From assembly GCF_009914755.1 (NCBI RefSeq), contig NC_060936.1: 64,000 nucleotides of DNA; one strand, written 5' to 3'. The notes beneath the pieces are model-generated. The model was given only the letters and a program-made list of their open reading frames with translations. It searched no databases and had not been told where the DNA came from. Each line of letters starts with the position of its first letter. The stretch's first letter is position 1. Source of the stretch: the human T2T-CHM13v2.0 reference genome, Homo sapiens. Below are positions 1 through 43,330 of the stretch, piece by piece. The translations under genes were made by a program, and so were the position numbers.

Positions 1-202
1 TTCACACCATTCTCCTGCCTCAGCCTCCTGAGTAGCTGGGACTACAGGCGCCCGCCACCACGCCCAGCTAATTTTTTTATTTTTAGTAGAGACGGGGTTT
101 CACCGAATTAGCCAGGATGGTCTCGATCTCCTGACCTTGTGATCCACCTGCCTTGGCCTCCCAAAGTGCTGGGATTACAGGCATGAGCCACCGCACCTGG
201 CC
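1..202 (-). mobile_element. Alu (AluY-like), truncated by window edge
   Basis: Antisense Alu sequence ending ...gagccaccgcacctggcc. Confidence 0.95.
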
Positions 203-639: not shown

Positions 640-1310
640 CTCAACTACATCATCCTAGACCAAGTCACCATATTTCCTGCCTGGACTACTACACATTAGC
701 CTCCTAATTGGTCTCTGCTTCCACTCTCAGTCTGCAATAATCTATTCTCACAGCAGCCAGAGCAATCTTTTTAATAAATCCAACCATGTCTCTCCTGTGC
801 TTAAAAACCTTTAGTGGCTTCCGGTGCAATAAAATCTAACTTCCCTCAGTGGCTCACAAAGCTCTCTGTGACCTGGTCCCCAGCTATCCTATTGACCCCA
901 TAGCCACCACCACTGTTCTTCTGACTCACTATTCTCTAACTACTCGGGCTTTCTTTCTGTTCCTCAAACATGCCTGTCATAGAGCTACTGCATTGGCTAT
1001 TTCTTTCTCGTTTTAGTCTCTTTTCCTGGCTTCTTGTGATTTAGTCTCATCTGCAATGTTACCTCCTTTGAGAGATCTTCCCTGATCACACAGTCAAGTT
1101 GCTACCAAGCAGTTCTCTATTTAAACCCCCTATTTTTACTCTGCAAAGTACTGGTCCCAATAGGATATTTTTATTTACTTGTTTATTTGTATATTAACTA
1201 TCTCCTGCAACCAGAATGTAGGCATGAGGGCAAAAACTTTGCATTATTCATGCCATTTTTGCAGCTCATTAAACAGTGCCTCGCTTGTAACAGTGTCAAA
1301 TAAATAATGT
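640..1310 (+). mobile_element. L2 relic
   Basis: Degenerate L2 3' motifs (cctggactactac...ctcctaattggtctc; cagcagccagagcaatcttt; acagtgcc). Boundaries approximate. Confidence 0.7.
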
Positions 1311-19938: not shown

Positions 19939-20254
<316 letters not shown>

Positions 20255-23200
20255 TCACAGAAGTCATTTAGGTTTATATGGACTACCCGTGTAAAGTGCC
20301 AAGTACTAAACCTGGCTCACAGAATGTACCCAATAAATGCATTACCCCATACATATTTTTCAATTTTCTAGAAATGAAAATGAAAACATCCTGTATCATG
20401 CAAAGCACTTCCCATGTACAGGCAGGTCCAATTATATTTCCTAATATTAATCTTCAACATAGAAGCAACACTATGCTTTTGATTTCAGCATGTGTTTTCA
20501 TGTTTCTATAATCTCTCAGTTTTATTCCCTCAGTGTAGAATGTCCTTCCTCCACTCTGTTTTAATAACCCCCCACCCATCATTCAAAGCCCATCCCAAAC
20601 AGTACTTATTCTCTATTATGTCACTTTCTTGCTCAAAATAAATAGCAAACACTTTATGATGGTTTACAAGGACCTTCACTCTTCACTCCCAGCTGGCCTC
20701 TATAACCTTATGTCTAATACTCTCCCCATCATTCATATTCAAATCATTCTGGGCGTTTTTTTTGTTCTTGCTTATACCTAGTTCATTCCTGCCAGAATTT
20801 TGTATGACTAGCTTCTTCACATAAAGTTCTCAGCTACGAGATGCTCAACTCTACTATCAGTTAGGGAGATGCAGATTAAATCTAAAATGAGATCAAAATC
20901 ATTCACATGCTTAAAAAAAGAATGTATCCCCAAGGATTTGGTGAAATTTATATCTTCATAAAACATAGAAGTATAAATTGATATAGGCTTTTTGAGTCAA
21001 TTTGGCAATATCTATTAAAATAAAGTATATCCATATCTTCCTATCCTGGCTTGCATATATTAGGATCTACCTGAGAAAAATAGTTACTCATATACATAAA
21101 GATTTTCATTCAAGCAGTACTCAAAATAGTGAAACAAAATTAAACAAAAAACCATTTGGTTAACAAACTAAATGTCCATCAACAGGGGAATAGTTAAATG
21201 CACCATATATAGAATATTATATAGAAGATTTAAAAAGGTCTATGTACAGATGAGGCAAAATCTCCAAGACATTATTAACCAAGAAAGCAAGTCATAGATA
21301 ATACGTATATGTAAAAATAGCAGTGCATTTAAGAAAATTACATATAATAATAATAATAGTAGCTTATATTCATTGAGTATTTACTATCAGGTACTGTTTC
21401 AAGGGCTTTAAATGTAGCAAAATAGTGACTTCTCATAACAACACTGCAAGTTATGTAATGTTATCATCCCAATTTCATATATGAGGAAACTGAGACACAG
21501 AAAGGTTAAGTAAGTTTCCATGGCCACACCGTTAATGGGTAACAAATCATTGTCTGGAGGCTGACCTCTTAATCACAGCCCTGCATTGTCTCATATGTTT
21601 GTATTTAAAAATAAATAAATAAGTAAATAAATGTGGGGTGTGTGTGTGTGTGGTGTATGTGTGTGCTTGAATACAAAGAGAAACGTTCAGATGCATGCTC
21701 ACTACAATGGTGTTTCTACGCGTGGAGAGAGAGAGGGGCTGGAACGGATTGAGGAAAACAGTTAAAGGGACTCTTTAAAAAATCTGATTTTAGTCTTTCC
21801 ACACTGAATTATTTAAAAATTTGCTAAGAATGCATTTACATATTTATTGTATATTTTTAAATACAATAGCCCAGTATCATCCCATAAGGATCATGAGAGG
21901 AAAGGTCATTCTAGAACAAACCAAAGAAGGTGGGACAAAGCATAATTTTGTTTAAATAGTACTTTCAGGCAGAGCTTTCAAGTAGTTTGGGCAAAATAAG
22001 TCCCCCAAAACAAAAGCAAAAATCCCTACAACTATAATTCTATAATTGCCTGGGTAACTCAGGTGAAATGAAGGGATTTTAGCAAAGTTACCTCAAAATT
22101 TACAGATGTAGAAGTATAGTCTGTGGGAGCTTCAAAACCTCAGTCACAATGTAATGCCAATGATATTCTGTTTGAACTATCATGACTGAATGGTTTTTCT
22201 CCCGACATCGTTAATTTGCTGAAACCCAAGTTTTCCTTTCCTATATTTCCTCTCAGTTGTTTATTTGTCGGGGCCAGCATATCACTTATACGGCATGGCA
22301 GATCATTCATGGTTCAATATATAGGCTATAAATCCATGTTTTCAAGGAATAATGTTCAATGGAAAAATCATAAGGAAGGATTATGAAATACTTCATGTTT
22401 AAAATTTTGCTTTTCATCTAATGGCTCCTGAGATTAAAAACAAACAAACAAACTTGTAGTGATCTCAATCTTGATAGATGTGAGATTCCACAGAGAGTAA
22501 TCAGTTGACCTAGGAATTTTTCTGAAAATGAAATGAGTTGGCTTTGTCTTTCTTCTTTGGTACAATTACTGTTGATCTTATCCCCCTTCCCCAAATAATA
22601 ATGTGTCATAACAAAGAAACATCAATATTCTCTACATAATAGATCATAATGAGATAGATACTAATGAGATCTGTGTTTCTCTCACTAAATATTAACTTAC
22701 ATCCACATCTGGTGGCCCTGCCTTTAATTCTGGCCACTTCTAAACCACTCTTCACATTGCAATCATAGTAATCATTCCAAAATGCACTCTCGTGCTTAAA
22801 ATAATTACATGTGCCTGTATTGCAGATACAGGCTGAAGTCTTTCAGCCTAGTGTACCTCACCCTTTGTGATCTGGCCCCTGTGTATATTTTCACCCTCAT
22901 TTGCTAATCCATGAAGGTCCAAACAGGAGAACATGCAATTTTTTCTTGTCTCTGGGCCCTTCCTTGTGATGTCTCTTTCACCTTCCTCACTGCCTCCGTT
23001 CACCTGCTTGCTTAAATCAATGGCTTGCTGCCTTGATTATAAACTAGCAATGATTATAAGCACTAACATTTATTTAGTACTTACTACATGTTCAGGAACT
23101 GTGTTATGCCATTTAAACACTAAAATAGAAAAACTAAGTAGCTTCTTATATTATCATCTTTTAGCAATGAGAAAACTAAGGTTCAGATAAGTTAGCAAAT

Positions 23201-23529: not shown

Positions 23530-24010
23530 TCATTTCCTTCTCCCCTCTACTCCAATCCACTCCAGTTTCACTGGTTTTTCGTTGCTTCTCTCGAATGCCA
23601 GTGCCCTTCAAACCTTAAAGACTTGGTGTTGACGCTTTCCTCTGATGGTCACAGGAGAATGATCTGAATGTTCTTCCCTAGGTGTGGCTCACTCCCTTAT
23701 CTCCTTTGACCTCCACCTTGAATATCACCCCTTAACTGATGCTACTCTGACCGGCACCACACTCTCCCTGCCATAGCATCCCCTAGCCTCCTTACGCTGT
23801 ACTGATTAATTTTCTTAGCACTTGCCATCTCTAACACTATATGGATTTCCTTATTTATTTTGTTTATTGCTTATCTGCCATACTAGAATGTGAACTCCAC
23901 AAAGGTAAGGACTTTTTTGTCTCTTTTTTTTCATTAAAGAATCCTGACTGCTTCAAATTGTACAATGTAGATGCCTAATAAATGCTTATTGAGTGACTGA
24001 GTGAATGACT
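23530..24010 (+). mobile_element. L2 3' end
   Basis: ctagaatgtgaactccac...aataaatgcttattgagtgactgagtgaatga tail. Confidence 0.7.
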
Positions 24011-25368
24011 ATTGAAACTGGCCAAGCAATGTTATATAGCCTTGTTTGGCTACACAGGTGCTTTAGATACAAGTTCATGTATATTTTGTCGATTTATTGC
24101 CCTATCTAACATCTCTCAAACTAAGGCTTTGGTGGAGTCACTGAGCAGTTAATATATTACTGAAAGCAGATGAATGTGCTTGGATCTAGGCAGAGTAACA
24201 AAACAAAGACAGCTAAAGTTAAAAGTCTGACCCAAGGTCTCACATTCCTATAAATAATTGATAATGCATCAGGGGAATTTTAATGAATATATTTGATTTG
24301 TTTTATTTACAAAATAGACATACTAAAAGTTGCACATAATTATTAATCCTTTTCTAGAAGAGTAAACAAATTTATTAGAGACCAAGCAGACTGAAAGTGA
24401 TTGGGCTTCTTTGTGAAACACTGCCAATATATGCAAAATTATATCCAATACAACTGAAGGAAAATATATTTGAAGCAATTACAAATCCTGTCCCATAACA
24501 TGATGTGTGGTGTGATAACCAACATCATACAACTTTGCATTATCCCTCCTGCCAATTTCATCTAATAAAACACGACTCATGTGAAATGGTGTGTGCCCTA
24601 GGTTCCTGTGGTAATTAGCTGTGTCTAAATTGCTATAACATGGGCAATGATATTTAAAGTTGCTCTTACATTGCCTAAGAGTGCATAGCAAAATAATAAT
24701 TATCATGTAATTTAGATTTTCAAAATGTAAACAGATCATGGCCACAAAAATAAGGGGAATTTCAGGATGAGTGGCTGTGCACTGTCTAGCCTGGTGGCCA
24801 GTCTCATTTCAGATCCATTGTAAAACTGAGAGACAGACAGCATTCAGGTACCCTGCAGGTTTTGGTTACAGACTTTACTGAGTGGTCAAATAGATATTGT
24901 GCCTTCTAGATTTAGGCAAAAAAGAAGAGTGGTGAGGCTTTGGCATATTTCTGTTCATGACATATTGGCACAATATTTCTACAAATCACTCAAAGCTAAA
25001 GCTAAGGCAATTAGGAGTAGTGCATCCATTTCTACTTATGAAAAACTTAACTTGGTGTTTCTAGGATAATTAGATCAAAGTAAGCTCCCTTAGGGTATGA
25101 TCTACGTTTTCTTTAAACTGTTCCTTTCCCAGTGCCAGACATGGTACCATGGTTAATAAATCTTATTAGCAGTCTGACTGAAGATTTTAAAGTGATATTC
25201 TTACAATAACGTTTGCCTGTAGAGACAGATTCAATACCAAATTTAATAATGGCAAGCTGTCAATTGCTTTGCCTTTGTCATCCATGGTAATTGGGATCAA
25301 CTCTGGTGCTCCTCCACACAGAACATTCAATTGAGATCAAGCCTTGGATGAAATCTCTTTTCCAGAAT

Positions 25369-25465
25369 GCTCCTCATTTATTGAATCAGAAGGAGCCTGG
25401 ACTTACCATTTGAAGGTGGTAGGAAATGGCCACCTTCAAATGGGAAGTCTAGGCTCCTTATGATG
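25369..25465 (-). ncRNA. MIR617: Intronic pre-miRNA hairpin miR-617; mature AGACUUCCCAUUUGAAGGUGGC = minus strand of 25429-25450
   Basis: 30-bp inverted repeat (25390-25419 / 25430-25459, 2 mismatches, 10-nt loop). Sequence matches my recollection of hsa-mir-617, which is known to lie in a LIN7A intron. Confidence 0.9.
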
Positions 25466-25674
25466 GCTTATGGTAGCTTCCGTGACATAGCTTCAGGCCA
25501 TCCCTTCAACTCTACTCTTTAGCTACAAACATGTTGATGCTATGATTTGGTAGAAGTCCATTCTATTCATATTTATGGCATAGTGTACAATGTGTGCATT
25601 TTTCAGATTTTAATATTGTAGCTACTATATGGTTTGGAACTGTTTTCATGAAAATGAACTAATTTAGTTTAAGA

Positions 25675-25868
25675 TAGTGATTCTCAACCAAGGATGATTT
25701 TGCTTGTTAGGGGACAGTTCACAAGGTCGGGGGACATTTTTTGTTGTGGTGACTGGATGGGGAGGGTGTTACTGGCCAGGATAAACATTCTACAATGCAC
25801 AGAATGGCCTCCCCCAGAAAGAATTATCCCATTCAAAATATCAGCAATTTCAAGGGTGAGAAATCCTG
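25675..25868. mobile_element. MER20-like hAT element
   Basis: gtgattctcaacc...aacattctacaatgcacagaatggcc...gtgagaaatcctg. Confidence 0.75.
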
Positions 25869-26109
25869 GTTGACAAATGTAATTGAGTGAAAAGTTTACA
25901 TAATATAATTTTTAAGTGTTCTACTTTGAAATGCTGTCAGTTTGATAGAGCTCAGTTAATTAAATTTACATCTTGGAAAAGGCAAAACTAAATTAAAACC
26001 TATGCCCTTGTTTATGTTCATATGGCTGAGCCATAGACAACACAACCTCCAAGTACTCAGCTGCTCACTCTCACCTGAACCATCTTTTCTGCTGTGTCAA
26101 CAAGAGGCA

Positions 26110-26650
26110 AGATCCTTGTCAGAAACCCAAGAGTTCTTGGTAACTCCCTATTCTTCACCTTGCATATCCAGTCAATCACCAGTTCTTGTTTATAGTCCCG
26201 TTACATCCAAAGTCATTTTCAAATCTTTTCCTTTCTCTCCAAATTGCCCCTCTTCCAGTTAAGACCTCCACCATGTCCCTCCAGAACTTCTAAGAGTGTC
26301 CTGGTTGATCTTCCACCTCCAGCTTTTCCTCCATGCCTTCACACACCCTATGCCCACATGTTGGCAATTGCCAGAATAACCTATAAAAATTCATGTCATT
26401 TTGGCAATTTCCTACCACTTTCAAATGTTAAGTCCGGGCTCCTTGTGATGGCTTATGGTGTCTTCCATGACGTGGCTCAAGCCCATCCCTTCAACCCTAC
26501 TCTTTAGCTACAAACATGTTGTTTCTTATATGTTTCTGTAGATGTTGTCCCTCTGTCTAGAATGCCCTCCATCAACCTATTCATTCTAACATTCCATAGA
26601 TAACTACTATTAATCCTTTAAAATGCTTCTTATTATATATACCATTTCCT
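26110..26650 (+). mobile_element. L2 relic containing the donor of the miR-617 arms
   Basis: cagaaaccc...atccagtcaatcacc...aagtccgggctcctt...cttccatgacgtggct...ctagaatgccctcc follows the L2 consensus order. Confidence 0.65.
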
Positions 26651-29210
26651 CTACAAAGGCAGAAGGTGTTGTTTGCTTGTTTTTAAATTCTGAATTTTCG
26701 CTACACTGTCCACAGTACCAAATGGCAATAACCGGCTAGAATTGTAATAGGGCATTTCTCCTCTAGATTGCCATCTTTCCCTCTTGATTATCTCTGCTCA
26801 CTTATCTAATCTCCTTCTGGACCCTAAAATAGTCAAATTTAACCACTCCTACTTCCTGGATAGCCTTTTGCAAAACCAAATCTAGTACAATGTCATGTTC
26901 CCTTGACTTTCAGAGGTAGAAGCTCAGAGACTGCCCAGAATCCTCAACTCTTCTGATGTCACATTTTACTCGATTTTTAAGTATGTAAGGACTACCACAT
27001 ATATAGTGATTAGTTCAGAATGAAAAATCTATGTTGAAATGGTAGTGCTGGGTGATAAGATAGGTTCAGGCTGATGCTAGATCAAATCTTGTATACTACA
27101 TATACAGATTTTGACTTCAGGATCTAAAGTCTTATGCTTTGGTTCTTATTCAAATTTATATTCTTAAAGCTTAAGATATGCTATATATTTACACAGTTGG
27201 TGATAATAGGCACCTCTGTAAATAGAAAACATGACTTCTCTTGAGAAGTGATTTGGTGTCACTGAAGGGCAAGGTCAATAATTTACAATTCAGAGTAAGG
27301 TTGGCTGTGATAAAATTAGCAACTAATGATTTTGTATCTACGAGAGAAGAGAAAGAAACCCAAGTAGGAAAGGCCTATGATCAAATGTGATTCATTTGCA
27401 AATTTATTGAAACAGCCCATACCTCCTGGCTGAACTTAGAAAGATGTAGTTCTAATACCACAATTGCTGATACTCATTTCCCATATCTGAGACTCAGCAA
27501 CCAACATTTGAGTTAAAGTTTGGTTATCTCACATGAACCTGTCAGCAATCACATGTGGCTTGTGACATGTCATCTGATTGCCATATGTATCAGTGTCTTC
27601 TGTTTTTGAGAATATAATTAAAAACAGAACAAGATATAAATCCATTATGGAAAATTATATAAACCCTTAGACTTACACTTGGCTTGCATTTCACTAGGTA
27701 TACTCATGTAGCTGTGGCATATTAACATTCCAACCTTGCTTTAGGCTAGTGCCAACAGTCTGTAGACCAGCATAAATAAGTTAGAAGAATGTTCCTCCCA
27801 AGTTAGGCTTAAATTGAATCATTGGCTTTTCACTAATGTTTAAAGCAATCACTGGTAATTGGGCTTGGTGAGTTCCACAAAATATAAATGATGCTTTTTT
27901 GGACCAGCACAGGATTTCAAGACAAATATTCTATTCATTTGAGATAAACCACACATTTCTCAGCTAGAACAGAAGAAGGACCATTACTTGGTTTACATAT
28001 TCTGTTTTTGTAAATTAAGGAAAAATGTTGCAATAGGAAACATGGAGAGATGCATCTGGAAGTTTGGTGAAAGGCTGTTTAATAATAATATACAGCAACA
28101 ATGCTGTGTAATTGTGGAAGCATAAGTCTTATCTTTTAATGCTGTATTTATCATTTCTCTTTTTTATCCTAATTACTATTAGGAAAGGTAGACAGGACAG
28201 GTGTTGTTACATCAGTCCTGCAGATATAAAGACACCAAAAATTCCAATGACTTGCCCATAATCAACCCACCAATGACAAGGATCCAATTTCCTCTGAAAT
28301 TAGAGTATTTAATGGGGGACTTTTATTGTCTCTTGAAGATAAACAAAAAGCAGAGGAGATGACTTAAACTGGGCGGAGAGTCTAACTCTATAGGGAGATA
28401 AAATTATAAGAAAGAAAAGACTATTATCTGATTTAAAAGAAAAAATTTATAGTTACTGGGTATTTAAAAGGTATCCAGCTTAATGCCAGACACTCTTACA
28501 TACTTTCTCTTATTTAATCTTTGGATTAAACCTGTGAGAAAGATATTGCTATTTTTGCTTTACGTATGACAAAATAGAGTCTCAAAGAGTAAATAAACAT
28601 ATTATGGTTAGAATAACCTTAACTCCTGAGAAACCATAAGAACTTGAATTTGAATGAGTCCCTTTTGAAATGTTGAAAATATCAATTCACAATAAAGTAA
28701 AAGTTTGTAATTTTCATTAAATATGATGACAGAAAAAAAGGGAAAATTGCTCTTAAGTTGTTATCATATGCAATATCCTAGTCAAGTGATTTAAGGATAT
28801 AGAAAGAAAATTTCAATACAAAAAATAATAATAAGCTAACAGAAAAAAAAAGTAGAATACATTTCATTTCGTAATGAACAGCCTCAGGATGTATTAGAGA
28901 CTCTTGGCATATCATCAGATTTCAGAATTGATTTCAGATTCCTAATGCACTTAGAGTAAAATGAAAACTTTTGGGTATCAACCTTAAAACTCCATTGGTT
29001 GGCTCCCAATCAGTTCTTCAGCCTCATCTTATCCCACTATGTATACTTTAGTCACTTTGTTCTTTCAGCCGCTCCTACATGGCAAATCATGGACTTCCTT
29101 ATCTCAAGACCTTCACACAAGCTCTTTCTTATGATAACAGACTCTTCTCCTTAATCTCAGTTTAAATGTCACCCTTCAAAGAGGCCATTTCTAACACTAT
29201 TAAAACTAGC

Positions 29211-41145: not shown

Positions 41146-43330
41146 CTAAAATGTTCACATAAAAAGAAGAATGTGTAAGAACATGAAGAATAATAATTCT
41201 TTTATTGCAGAAAGAAAATTATATTTTCACTGTAGGAAAAAAATTCTCTATTGCAAAATAACATAGGTCTGATGTTTGGGAATGTACCTGATAGCACTCC
41301 TTAAACAGCAGATATTATTACTCATTGTGATTTTAGATACAATTACAGAAATCATTAAAATGTAGTAGAAAAAAATTGTTTCTTATAAACTTCCAGGGAT
41401 GGGATTATAAAATCTTTGTATCTATGGTAAAATAAATTGCTTAAACTAAAGTACAGAAAAAAAAAAACTTAAAGGATGCCTTGAGGAAGATGTTTGGAAA
41501 AAAGTAACAAGGTTAAATGTGTTGGACTATATGTTCATTTTGGATTTAAATAGTATACGTAAAAATTTATTGCATAATGCATAGCAATAAAAGTCCATTT
41601 GGTACTAGGCTAGAGTATTTTTGGGGAGTGATCCATTAGCTATTTCAGTAAAAAAGGAAAGGGAAAAACTGCAATCGAAGGTTGAAAGGTTTTTTTCTTC
41701 CTTTATATTAATCTTATTTTACATGCTTAACTCAAAAATTAAATAAGTGAATCCAACATTTGATTAATTCACCCATTCAACAACTATTTGTTGAGTGTCT
41801 GGGACTAATCTCTTCCCTGCATTTTTGACTGGCTCATAATTTCTCAAATACATTTGGTTGAATCTCCACTAACGCTGACTCATCTTTCCCAGGTGACATG
41901 GTTAGAAGGAAATTGACAAAGTAGTCTGTACTAAAAAGGCAACAGTGCAATTCAGAATCTAACTTTTAGCTCTGAATCTCCACTTAACAATTATGAGGTG
42001 TTCAATTTCTATGGGAAATCTGAATGGAGACAGGAACAAGTTTCCAGAAGATCATTTATGGAATCTGAGATATGTTACTGCAAATTCTCCAGGTTACCTG
42101 AACAGCTGCTAAACGTACTTCCAGATTATTTCCTTGGAAATGCATTATTTTGTTTCATAGAGACAGCCTTTCCAAAAATAAATTATACTATTTGCTCTAA
42201 TAGCCCATTTCAGAGGAGGATTTTCCCTGCCCTGCTTCTCTTGTAATAAACTCTCTCAAATCTGACCCTTCATTCCACCCTAGCTCATTATCTCTTGCTG
42301 CAAGCATTGCATTAGTGACTTAATTGGGTCTCCCTGCCATCAAACCATATACACTTTGGTGATCATCAAGTACCTACCTGACCATGTCCCTGCTGTGCTC
42401 TTGGCTGTCTGCTGCCCTTACTGCAAAGGTGATAAGGGCAAATACCTACAGGAGTCAAGCCACAGATAATAATGCAGAACTCAGCCTTCTCTCTAGTTTT
42501 ATTTTCCTGTTTTCTTTTCTCCACCCCCACCATTCCTCAAACATATTGAACTCTCCAAGTTACCTAGGTCTCTGCACATGCCGTTTACTCTGCTAGGAAT
42601 GCCCTTCCACCTGGCAGACTCTTATTCATCCAAATTTAATATGATGATAAAAGGTCAAATTCAAATATTGTCTCCTCTATTAAATGTTTTCTGCCTCCCT
42701 CAAGCAGAGTGAGTCTCTCCACAGTTCCTGGTCATCTGAATTTGTTTGAAGTTATTTTGGTTAACATTGCCAGGGAAAGTGACTTTGCCTGCATCCAAGG
42801 ATGTTTATGAAGACAATCATTTAGCAAATAATTGGAATATTGTCATCAATTGAATAAAACAAAAGGTGATTTTGTAAGTGCTGGAGATAAATACCTGTAC
42901 CTAATAAATATCACAAATTAAGAATAATTAGCCTTAAGACCCCAAATTGATTTTGAATTAGAAAGTGGTATATTCAAGGAGCAATACTGTGTAGTAGATA
43001 ATTTCACAGACTCTGAAGATGGCTTGGAAGCAAACCGTAGCTGTACCATTTAATTGTATGATGTTTGTCAGTCACTTGATTTCTCTGATCCTCAATTTCC
43101 TCATTTTAAAAATGTGCCTTAAAATAGTAAGTAACTTCTAGGTCTGTTATGAGGATTAAATAAGATAAGAACAATTTGCCATGTTTAGTATGTTTCCAAA
43201 AGTTAGCTATCATTGTTATGCTGTTGCTGGCATTTGATGTTTCTCATCTTATTTGACCATGGATCTTTTGGGGAAAATCTCCTAAGATGAGCAGTTCGTG
43301 AACACTGTTTACATAGAATTGATCAAGGGC

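What the first reader, a model, noticed from the sequence alone, without database searches (positions are those of the whole stretch)
25385..26521. Origin of the miR-617 hairpin: inverted plus direct copy of an L2 donor 1 kb away (template-switch signature)
Seen in sequence: 25430-25536 is an ungapped direct copy of 26415-26521 (107 nt, 15 mismatches by hand count, ~86%). The reverse complement of 25390-25432 matches 26402-26444 (39/43). The inverted and direct pieces overlap at a 3-nt CCA (25430-25432), and together they form the whole hairpin, loop included. The 26.4-kb copy sits in continuous L2-like sequence while the 25.4-kb copy does not, so it is the likely donor. Inference: one replication/repair event with a microhomology-mediated template switch created a ready-made 30-bp hairpin from L2 sequence. 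The two arms differ by only 2/30, less than the direct arm differs from the donor (5/30), which could reflect selection or gene conversion.
Basis: partly seen in the sequence, partly recalled or inferred. Interest (0 to 1): 0.8.

Follow-up and report, generated by a model that had tools for sequence, protein, structure and literature searches.

The report
miR-617 hairpin copied from neighbouring repeat
The stem-loop of the primate microRNA miR-617 is built from a backward copy and a forward copy of one short stretch of an ancient repeat lying 1 kb away, a clear example of how copying errors can create a new microRNA gene.

Summary
25430-25541 is a direct copy of 26415-26526 (17/112 mismatches). 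25385-25432 is the reverse complement of 26402-26449 (5/48). The two pieces overlap at CCA and together make the whole 35-bp stem and 10-nt loop of mir-617 (Rfam 112 bits; -49.9 kcal/mol, z -9.9). The donor stretch does not fold (z +1.1).

A whole-genome search finds no other close copy. The donor lies inside a continuous fragment (about 26121-26660) of an old dispersed repeat, shown with profiles built from 21-30 independent genome copies. The hairpin's flanks do not. Donor and copy are 80-85% identical, against at most 60% for either versus independent copies. This is therefore a secondary copy of the neighbour, not two separate repeat insertions.

One complex template-switch event (about 0.5) and duplication followed by a local switch (about 0.35) cannot be separated without outgroup genomes. 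The arm-versus-donor argument for selection or gene conversion is not significant (Fisher p 0.48), and only one site is a clear shared derived change. mir-617 is absent from the published template-switch miRNA list and from a catalogue of 409 repeat-derived miRNAs. The name "L2" rests on recall only.

The parts
25385..25432 (.). Inverted piece: reverse complement of donor 26402-26449. It forms the left arm on the + strand (25385-25419), the whole 10-nt loop (25420-29) and the CCA.
   Evidence: 43/48 identical; blastn E 4.8e-10 in the window; E 2.2e-8 in the whole genome
25430..25432 (.). CCA shared by the end of the inverted piece and the start of the direct piece (3-nt junction microhomology)
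   Evidence: Coordinates of the two repeats overlap here; the neighbouring bases mismatch on both sides (read)
25430..25541 (.). Direct piece: copy of donor 26415-26526. It forms the right arm (25430-25464) plus 77 nt that are not part of the hairpin. It may run to 25557 with gaps.
   Evidence: 95/112 identical; gapped 81.7% over 131 columns to 25557/26545, but that extension alone is not significant
25384..25465 (-). mir-617 precursor hairpin: 35-bp stem with 3 mismatched positions and a 10-nt loop, on the same strand as the host gene LIN7A
   Evidence: Rfam RF03201, 112.4 bits against a gathering score of 80, E 2.8e-26; MFE -49.9 kcal/mol, z -9.87, 0 of 200 shuffles as stable; annotation in the task
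25429..25450 (-). Mature miR-617 as annotated. It is read from the complement of the direct piece and starts 15 nt in from the base of the stem.
   Evidence: Annotation given with the finding; position relative to the stem worked out
26402..26526 (+). Donor segment: one contiguous stretch that is the source of both pieces
   Evidence: It does not fold on its own: 26385-26481 minus strand gives -12.9 kcal/mol, z +1.11
26402..26417 (+). TGG (26402-04) and CCA (26415-17) in the donor: a 3-bp inverted micro-repeat 10 nt apart, exactly at the strand-switch points. The 10-nt spacer became the miRNA loop.
   Evidence: Read
26121..26660 (+). Fragment of an old dispersed repeat family (LINE-2 3' region by recall only) that contains the donor and runs past both of its ends
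   Evidence: Profiles built from independent genome copies hit 26269-26509 (E 9.8e-7), 26122-26500 (E 5.1e-7), 26411-26658 (E 7.7e-11) and 26543-26660 (E 1.4e-9). With the donor masked, the left flank 26121-26388 still hits (E 0.0083).

Best explanation
A 125-nt stretch (26402-26526) of an ancient LINE-type repeat fragment in LIN7A intron 4 was copied to a site about 1 kb upstream as two abutting pieces.

The first piece is the first 48 nt in reverse complement. The second piece is nt 14-125 in forward orientation. They are joined at a 3-nt CCA, which matches a TGG...CCA micro inverted repeat, 10 nt apart, in the donor.

Because 35 nt are present in both orientations, the insert was born as a near-perfect 35-bp stem with a 10-nt loop. 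This lies on the transcribed strand of an intron. That is the geometry Drosha and Dicer prefer, and it is now annotated as mir-617.

I think the most likely route is a single replication or repair event. A DNA end at the 25.4-kb site used the repeat 1 kb away as template, switched strands once at the microhomology, and rejoined. This would be a templated insertion of the MMBIR / template-switch kind, in an ancestor of primates.

What is shown: the two copies, their orientation and junction, the direction of copying, the repeat context, and that the hairpin exists only in the copy. What is inferred: that it was one event, the enzymology, and the date.

Confidence that this is a secondary inverted-plus-direct copy of the neighbour is about 0.9. 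Confidence in the single-event version is about 0.5, and that is the figure given below.
For: - Anatomy and significance. No other close copy exists in the 3.1-Gb genome.
- Hairpin versus donor: the hairpin gives -49.9 kcal/mol, z -9.9 and Rfam mir-617 112 bits. The donor does not fold, z +1.1.
- The donor is in a dispersed repeat. Three window-derived motifs, to the right of, inside and to the left of the donor, have 30, 22 and 86 genome matches. The reversed-pattern controls give 0 each.
- The profile seeded inside the donor hits 26 of 30 copies seeded on the left motif, collinearly and on the same strand. The profile seeded on the right motif hits 7 of 21 copies seeded inside.
- Those profiles align to the window across both donor ends. 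At the copy they align only to 25443-25524.
- Donor-copy identity is 0.80, against a maximum of 0.60 to 21 independent copies.
- No donor-flank homology in direct orientation beside the copy. No tandem 985-nt periodicity in 24500-28500.
- The loop sequence has its only counterpart in the donor: 12/13 positions in the loop-plus-CCA stretch.
- For a single event: the three divergences to the donor are statistically alike (11/77, 6/35, 5/48). No trace of a longer direct copy remains to the left of the hairpin. mir-617 is absent from the 2023 list of template-switch miRNAs (Dataset S1 searched and part 1 read). That method could have seen a purely local switch within 50 bp of flank (Methods sections read).
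- Date: pooled K2P distance of 0.153 over 160 nt gives 35-76 My at 2.2e-9 to 1.0e-9 per site per year. A paper calls MIR617 primate-specific (passage seen).
Against: - No outgroup genome could be examined, so neither the empty site nor the timing was observed.
- One site (25443, with its partner in the other arm) carries the same derived base in both arms. The donor keeps the base seen in 18 of 21 family copies. A plain single event predicts this only by parallel or compensatory change, roughly 7% by my estimate. A two-step history predicts it naturally.
- The left outer junction shows no microhomology in today's sequence (read). The right outer junction cannot be placed better than 25541-25557.
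- Evidence that the repeat continues left of 26402 is modest. With the donor masked, one profile gives E 0.0083 and the other gives nothing at E<=1. Single-sequence comparison of the donor region with 21 and with 29 copies is nearly blind.
- The genome search scores only its best candidates, so 'no other copy' holds for close copies only.
Confidence: 0.5

Rival explanations
1. Two steps. First a short direct duplication of the donor (from at least 26402 to about 26526-45) landed 1 kb upstream. Later a local template-switch mutation at the left edge of that copy replaced its first 13 nt, and whatever lay before them, with the reverse complement of its first 48 nt. That created the hairpin.
For: - One clear shared derived base in both arms against the donor and against 18 of 21 family copies.
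- The arms are nominally closer to each other (3/35) than to the donor (4/35 and 6/35).
- Local template switches of this size are documented as a source of primate miRNA hairpins (PMC10710096: abstract, three Methods sections and passages read).
Against: - It needs two rare events at one spot, with the second at the very edge of the first, because no direct donor homology survives to the left of 25385.
- The first step already requires an unusual dispersed 125-nt templated insertion.
- The arm-arm versus arm-donor difference is not significant (p 0.48 and 0.58).
- mir-617 is not in the published list from a scan that could have seen a local switch within 50 bp of flank. Failure of that scan's quality filters is an equally good reason for the absence.
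Confidence: 0.35
2. The classical model for repeat-derived hairpins: two independent copies of the repeat inserted next to each other in opposite orientation at 25.4 kb. The 26.4-kb copy would then be just a third, unrelated insertion.
For: - Published catalogues describe many L2-derived miRNAs as two nearby, oppositely oriented L2 elements (PMC6433296, passage seen; PMC4482582 'Type I inverted', passages seen).
Against: - Donor-copy identity is 0.80-0.90. The maximum to 21 independent copies is 0.60, and the maximum among 210 independent pairs is 0.758, even though those copies were selected to share 17 fixed bases.
- Homology stops abruptly at 25385 and at about 25541.
- No family profile hits the flanks.
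- The two pieces meet at a point that is 13 nt apart on one contiguous donor.
Confidence: 0.02
3. RNA-mediated copy. A transcript of the repeat was reverse-transcribed and inserted with an inversion, in the manner of L1 'twin priming'. That process gives an inverted 5' piece joined to a direct 3' piece.
For: - The architecture (inverted piece, then a direct piece of the same template, with a short junction homology) resembles twin-primed L1 insertions. This resemblance is from recall and was not tested.
Against: - No A-rich tail after the direct piece and no convincing target-site duplication in the flanks printed (judged by eye only).
- The inverted piece overlaps the direct piece by 35 of its 48 nt, rather than lying mainly upstream of it.
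- The template would be a 125-nt internal piece of an intron-antisense transcript.
Confidence: 0.05
4. Gene conversion. Old independent repeat fragments at 25.4 kb were homogenised against the 26.4-kb copy, which raised their identity afterwards.
For: - High identity confined to a short tract is what a conversion tract looks like.
Against: - It still needs a pre-existing inverted pair covering exactly the same repeat coordinates.
- No older repeat homology continues beyond the tract ends.
- The loop-plus-CCA stretch is itself a 12/13 inverted copy of the donor.
Confidence: 0.03

Closest known systems
Template-switch-mutation (TSM) origin of primate miRNA hairpins (Monttinen, Frilander, Loytynoja, PNAS 2023, PMC10710096)
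   Same: An inverted fragment is copied from the opposite strand of nearby sequence. This creates, in one stroke, a perfect stem of miRNA size inside an intron on the host gene's strand. The 35-bp stem and 10-nt loop match the preferred pri-miRNA geometry quoted in that paper's introduction.
   Different: There the source lies within the locus itself: loci were analysed with 50 bp of flank, and the polymerase returns to its original template. Here the source is about 970 nt away, and the forward arm is also a copy, so the whole 157-nt block is new at the site. mir-617 is not among the loci in their Dataset S1; their PDF supplements could not be read.
Repeat-derived miRNAs of the 'inverted TE' type, e.g. 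L2-derived mir-151a and mir-28 (Qin et al. 2015, PMC4482582; Petri et al. 2019, PMC6433296)
   Same: Both arms are repeat sequence in opposite orientations, in an intron, and the repeat family is old.
   Different: Those are described as two distinct elements lying close together. Here both arms are secondary copies of one neighbouring element. mir-617 is absent from the three supplementary tables of the 409-miRNA catalogue, where the list goes from hsa-mir-616 to hsa-mir-619.
Templated insertions and complex rearrangements by replication-based template switching (FoSTeS / MMBIR), and fold-back inverted duplications (recalled; no paper read here)
   Same: Short segments are copied from sequence within kilobases, in either orientation, and joined at 2-5 nt of microhomology. 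The strand switch occurs at a small inverted repeat.
   Different: Those are mostly described for disease-causing or somatic structural variants. Here the event is a fixed, tens-of-millions-of-years-old, 157-nt insertion whose product is an annotated miRNA.
Inverted duplication of target genes as the origin of plant miRNA genes (recalled; no paper read here)
   Same: The hairpin arises by inverted duplication of pre-existing sequence.
   Different: The source here is a decayed repeat, not a future target gene. It is animal rather than plant, and the arms are much shorter.

Membership tests
Rfam mir-617 (RF03201) | Covariance-model score above the curated gathering score | tested here: met
   112.4 bits against 80, full length 1-82, minus strand 25384-25465. 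The plus-strand reading scores 77.7, below threshold, as expected for a near-palindrome.
TSM-generated miRNA (Monttinen et al. 2023 criteria) | Inverted fragment of at least 15 nt with at least 80% identity to a source on the other strand | tested here: met
   48 nt, 89.6% identical to the reverse complement of 26402-26449
TSM-generated miRNA (Monttinen et al. 2023 criteria) | Source lies within the locus (analysed with 50 bp of flank) and replication returns to the original template | tested here: not met
   The source is 970 nt away and the forward arm is also copied. Methods read. Under the two-step rival this feature would be met for the second step.
TSM-generated miRNA (Monttinen et al. 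2023 criteria) | Parent node lacks the hairpin and child node has it, on a species tree | not testable with these tools
   Only the human genome and prokaryote genomes are held (banner)
TSM-generated miRNA (Monttinen et al. 2023 criteria) | New stem of 30-55 bases with the loop central in the switched region | tested here: met
   35-bp stem, 10-nt loop; criterion read
Inverted-TE miRNA (Type I of Qin et al. 2015) | Precursor made of repeat sequence in two opposite orientations | tested here: met
   The direct arm region 25443-25524 hits the family profile (E 0.0028). The inverted arm is a 43/48 reverse copy of the repeat-embedded donor.
Inverted-TE miRNA (Type I of Qin et al. 2015) | The two arms come from two distinct transposon insertions | tested here: not met
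   Both arms are 83-89% identical to one neighbouring copy (6/35 and 4/35 mismatches), against at most 60% for the copy or the donor versus independent copies on 80 profile columns
LINE-2 (L2) 3' region | Match to the named consensus or model in a curated repeat library | not testable with these tools
No Dfam/RepeatMasker was available. Shown here is only membership of an abundant, old dispersed family. A Rfam scan of 20 family copies found no L2-derived miRNA family at the repeat, only Alu-related hits elsewhere in the loci.
L1-mediated twin-primed retrocopy | Poly-A tail at the 3' end of the direct piece and a target-site duplication | tested here: not met
   The flanks printed show no A-run after 25541-25557 and no clear duplicated flank (by eye; 35-76 My of decay could hide them)
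Microhomology-mediated templated insertion (MMBIR/FoSTeS type) | Microhomology at every junction | tested here: inconclusive
   The internal junction has 3 nt, CCA. The left outer junction has none in today's sequence. The right junction is not resolvable.

The most novel reading that the evidence does not exclude
miR-617 is the first worked example of a general route. A single old transposon fragment is copied over a kilobase-scale distance, with a strand switch, into a ready-made miRNA hairpin.

If this is common, part of the 'two adjacent inverted transposons' class of human miRNAs would in fact be inverted templated duplications of one element. Both kinds of existing scan would miss such events systematically. 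Template-switch scans are limited to the locus plus 50 bp. RepeatMasker-overlap catalogues did not list mir-617.
Probability: 0.3. Interest if true: 0.65.

Novelty: new variant of a known kind. Interest (0 to 1): 0.45.

Why it matters
This gives a base-by-base birth record for a primate-specific microRNA. Stem, loop and flank are all accounted for by one 125-nt donor, and the switch point sits on a 3-bp micro inverted repeat.

It links two literatures that treat such hairpins separately: transposon-derived miRNAs and template-switch miRNAs. It also suggests a blind spot in both. The template-switch scan looked only 50 bp around each locus. The repeat catalogue I could search does not list mir-617.

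The claim is cheaply testable with primate genome alignments.

The limits are real. The mechanism class is already known. mir-617 is a weakly characterised miRBase entry; I could not check whether stricter miRNA registries accept it. Nothing here bears on its function.

Tried and rejected
- **Naming the repeat.** No repeat library is on hand. A Rfam scan of 20 family copies at E<=5 gave Alu/SRP-type hits and no L2-derived miRNA family at the repeat. Literature searches for mir-617 together with transposon terms found nothing useful. PMC7345915 does not list it. Two older papers on repeat-derived miRNAs are not held.
- **Single-sequence searches from the donor.** nhmmer against the window found only the known copies. 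Against 29 copies, 8 hits appeared at E<=10 and only one reached into the donor (L012, 26435-26628). Against 21 copies there were 0 hits. The family is too decayed for pairwise work, so profiles were needed.
- **Profiles that went wrong.** The first alignment of 900-nt extracts was loose. Refining it shrank the window hit to 26543-26660. Two profiles picked up Alu elements from the flanks, and their Alu hits were ignored.
- **Left-flank test.** The core-seeded profile gave no hit left of 26402 once the donor was masked. A profile seeded on the left motif did (E 0.0083).
- **Motif co-occurrence by fuzzy matching.** This failed. The right motif was found downstream in 2 of 21 independent copies. 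The core motif was found in 1 of 30 left-seeded copies. Profile searches replaced it.
- **Flank homology between the two loci.** Direct orientation: none (141/300, 84/300, 273/300 and 117/300 shuffles reach the score).
- **Empty-site test through paralogues.** Both flanks of the hairpin are unique in the genome at this sensitivity.
- **Tandem 985-nt duplication.** No further collinear match in 24500-28500.

Full report
**1. The observation**

Region 25200-26700 was read and scanned for repeats. There is one direct family, 25430-25541 against 26415-26526 (112 nt, 85%). There is one long inverted pair, 25385-25432 against 26402-26449 (48 nt, 90%). There is also the local hairpin pair, 25385-25419 against 25430-25464 (35 nt, 91%).

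Over the full extents the counts are 17/112 and 5/48. The two pieces share exactly CCA at 25430-25432.

blastn gives E 1.5e-28 and 4.8e-10 within the window. A search of the whole 3.1-Gb assembly with 26300-26620 returns only the query itself and these two matches. That tool scores only its best candidates, so the result excludes close copies, not decayed ones.

A self-comparison of 24500-28500 shows no further collinear match, so this is not the remnant of a 985-nt tandem duplication.

**2. What the pieces make**

Rfam's mir-617 model matches 25384-25465 on the minus strand with 112.4 bits against a gathering score of 80.

The annotated precursor folds into a 35-bp stem with three mismatched positions and a 10-nt loop. 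The energy is -49.9 kcal/mol, z -9.87, and 0 of 200 shuffles fold as well. The equivalent stretch of the donor does not fold: -12.9 kcal/mol, z +1.11, and 182 of 200 shuffles do as well.

The structure is therefore a product of the inverted piece. The inverted piece supplies one arm, the whole loop and the CCA. The direct piece supplies the other arm plus 77 nt that play no part in the hairpin.

The annotated mature miRNA (25429-25450, minus strand) is read from the complement of the direct piece. It starts 15 nt up from the base of the stem. The miRNA is on the same strand as its host gene LIN7A. A 2024 paper places it in intron 4 and calls it primate-specific (passages seen).

**3. Which copy is the original**

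No named repeat library was available, so I built the test from the genome itself.

Three short motifs taken from the window were searched genome-wide:
- One to the right of the donor (26546-26570), with up to 3 mismatches, gave 30 matches.
- One inside the donor (26430-26452, with six N) gave 22 matches.
- One to the left of the donor (26370-26390, with five N) gave 86 matches. Through a slip, its last letter differs from the window.

The reversed-pattern controls gave 0 in every case. Of the 86 matches, 30 were fetched.

Profiles were built only from the other genomic copies, never from the window. They show that the three motifs belong to one family, in this order and orientation:
- The core-seeded profile hits 26 of 30 left-seeded copies.
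- The right-seeded profile hits 7 of 21 core-seeded copies.

Against the window, these profiles align to 26269-26509 (E 9.8e-7), 26122-26500 (E 5.1e-7), 26411-26658 (E 7.7e-11) and 26543-26660 (E 1.4e-9). The donor therefore lies inside a fragment of roughly 26121-26660 that continues past both of its ends.

The evidence on the right side is strong on its own. On the left it is modest. With the donor masked, one profile still hits 26121-26388 (E 0.0083), and the other finds nothing.

At the 25.4-kb locus, the only profile hit is 25443-25524, inside the direct piece (E 0.0028). Nothing hits its flanks. The flanks also show no direct-orientation similarity to the donor's flanks.

That name was not verified by any search.

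**4. Not independent insertions**

On 80 profile columns, donor and copy are 0.80 identical (85% in the ungapped alignment). The comparisons with independent copies are:
- Donor against 21 independent copies: mean 0.50, maximum 0.60.
- Copy against the same 21: mean 0.48, maximum 0.595.
- The 210 pairs among independent copies: mean 0.55, maximum 0.758.

These values are inflated, because the independent copies were selected to share 17 fixed bases. The classical reading of such hairpins, two separate oppositely oriented insertions (passages), is excluded here.

**5. One event or two**

Over the 35 nt present in all three versions, the site pattern is as follows:
- Both arms agree against the donor: 3 sites.
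- Only the direct arm differs: 2 sites.
- Only the inverted arm differs: 0 sites.
- All three differ: 1 site.

This gives arm-arm 3/35, direct arm-donor 6/35 and inverted arm-donor 4/35. None of these contrasts is significant: Fisher p 0.48 and 0.58, multinomial p 0.38.

I polarised the sites with 21 family copies:
- One of the three 'both arms against donor' sites is a change in the donor lineage. The family has A in 17 of 21 copies, as both arms do.
- One is a clear shared derived base in both arms. The family has T in 18 of 21 copies, as the donor does, and both arms have G at 25443 and its partner.
- One is ambiguous.

The single shared derived site is what a two-step history predicts. A plain single event needs parallel or compensatory change to explain it, which I estimate at roughly 7%.

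Against two steps:
- No direct-orientation donor homology survives to the left of 25385. A later local switch would therefore have had to act at the very edge of the earlier insert.
- The first step would already be an unusual dispersed templated insertion.
- mir-617 is missing from the published list of template-switch miRNAs. That scan used 50 bp of flank and could have seen a local switch, although its quality filters could equally explain the absence.

I put the single event at about 0.5 and two steps at about 0.35.

**6. Mechanism**

In the donor, TGG (26402-04) and CCA (26415-17) form a 3-bp inverted micro-repeat with 10 nt between them. A strand being copied from the donor that switches to the complementary template, or onto itself, at this micro-repeat yields exactly the observed product. 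The 10-nt spacer becomes the loop.

This is the logic of template-switch or fold-back synthesis at microhomology. Here it operates between sites about 1 kb apart. The enzymes, the order in which the pieces were made, and the outer junctions are inferred, not shown.

A retrocopy with twin priming is unlikely. No A-tail and no target duplication are visible (by eye).

**7. Age**

The pooled donor-copy distance is 22/160 mismatches, K2P 0.153. This gives 35-76 My at 2.2e-9 to 1.0e-9 substitutions per site per year. The range is consistent with 'primate-specific' and far younger than the host repeat, whose copies are only about 50-55% alike.

**8. Novelty**

Hairpin birth by template switching is published (PMC10710096: abstract, Methods sections 12-14, passages and Dataset S1 part 1 read). 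Transposon-derived inverted hairpins are published too (PMC4482582, PMC6433296: passages read, and the first paper's supplements searched).

mir-617 is in neither list I could search. No paper in the library links mir-617 to transposons. The PDF supplements of the 2023 paper and two older catalogues could not be read and may bear on this.

The new points are the kilobase-distant donor and the fact that both arms are copied from a single neighbouring element.

Noticed in passing
window 26362-26373 and 26402-26409: A perfect 12-nt palindrome (TGGCAATTGCCA) lies 29 nt upstream of the donor's left end. Its first 8 nt recur as a direct repeat exactly at the switch point 26402-26409. The repeat finder also reports the 21-nt imperfect inverted pair 26360-26380 / 26395-26415. 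Such a structure might have favoured stalling or fold-back at this spot.
   Followed up: no
window 25675-25870: Between the hairpin and the donor lies an element with short inverted ends, looking like a small non-autonomous DNA transposon. This was seen by eye. It was neither named nor tested. If it is younger than the copying event, the original donor-copy distance was about 200 nt shorter.
   Followed up: no
window 669-983, 20088-20704, 22710-22803, 23536-24010, 42449-42736: Further fragments of the same old repeat family, all on the + strand and therefore antisense to LIN7A. The uniform orientation inside the gene is the usual bias for old LINE fragments but was not analysed.
   Followed up: partly
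window 25233-25278 vs 26653-26697: Weak inverted similarity between sequence left of the hairpin and sequence right of the donor (score 15; the shorter 25240-25278 / 26653-26689 version scored 14, reached by 1 of 1000 shuffles in one of nine comparisons; AT-rich). Probably chance, but it could be another small inverted templated piece.
   Followed up: partly
window 26506-26535 relative to the family profile: In the first profile alignment, the donor fragment lacks about 70 profile positions just right of the copied segment. One independent copy (L012) aligns without that gap. It may be a subfamily difference or an alignment artefact.
   Followed up: no
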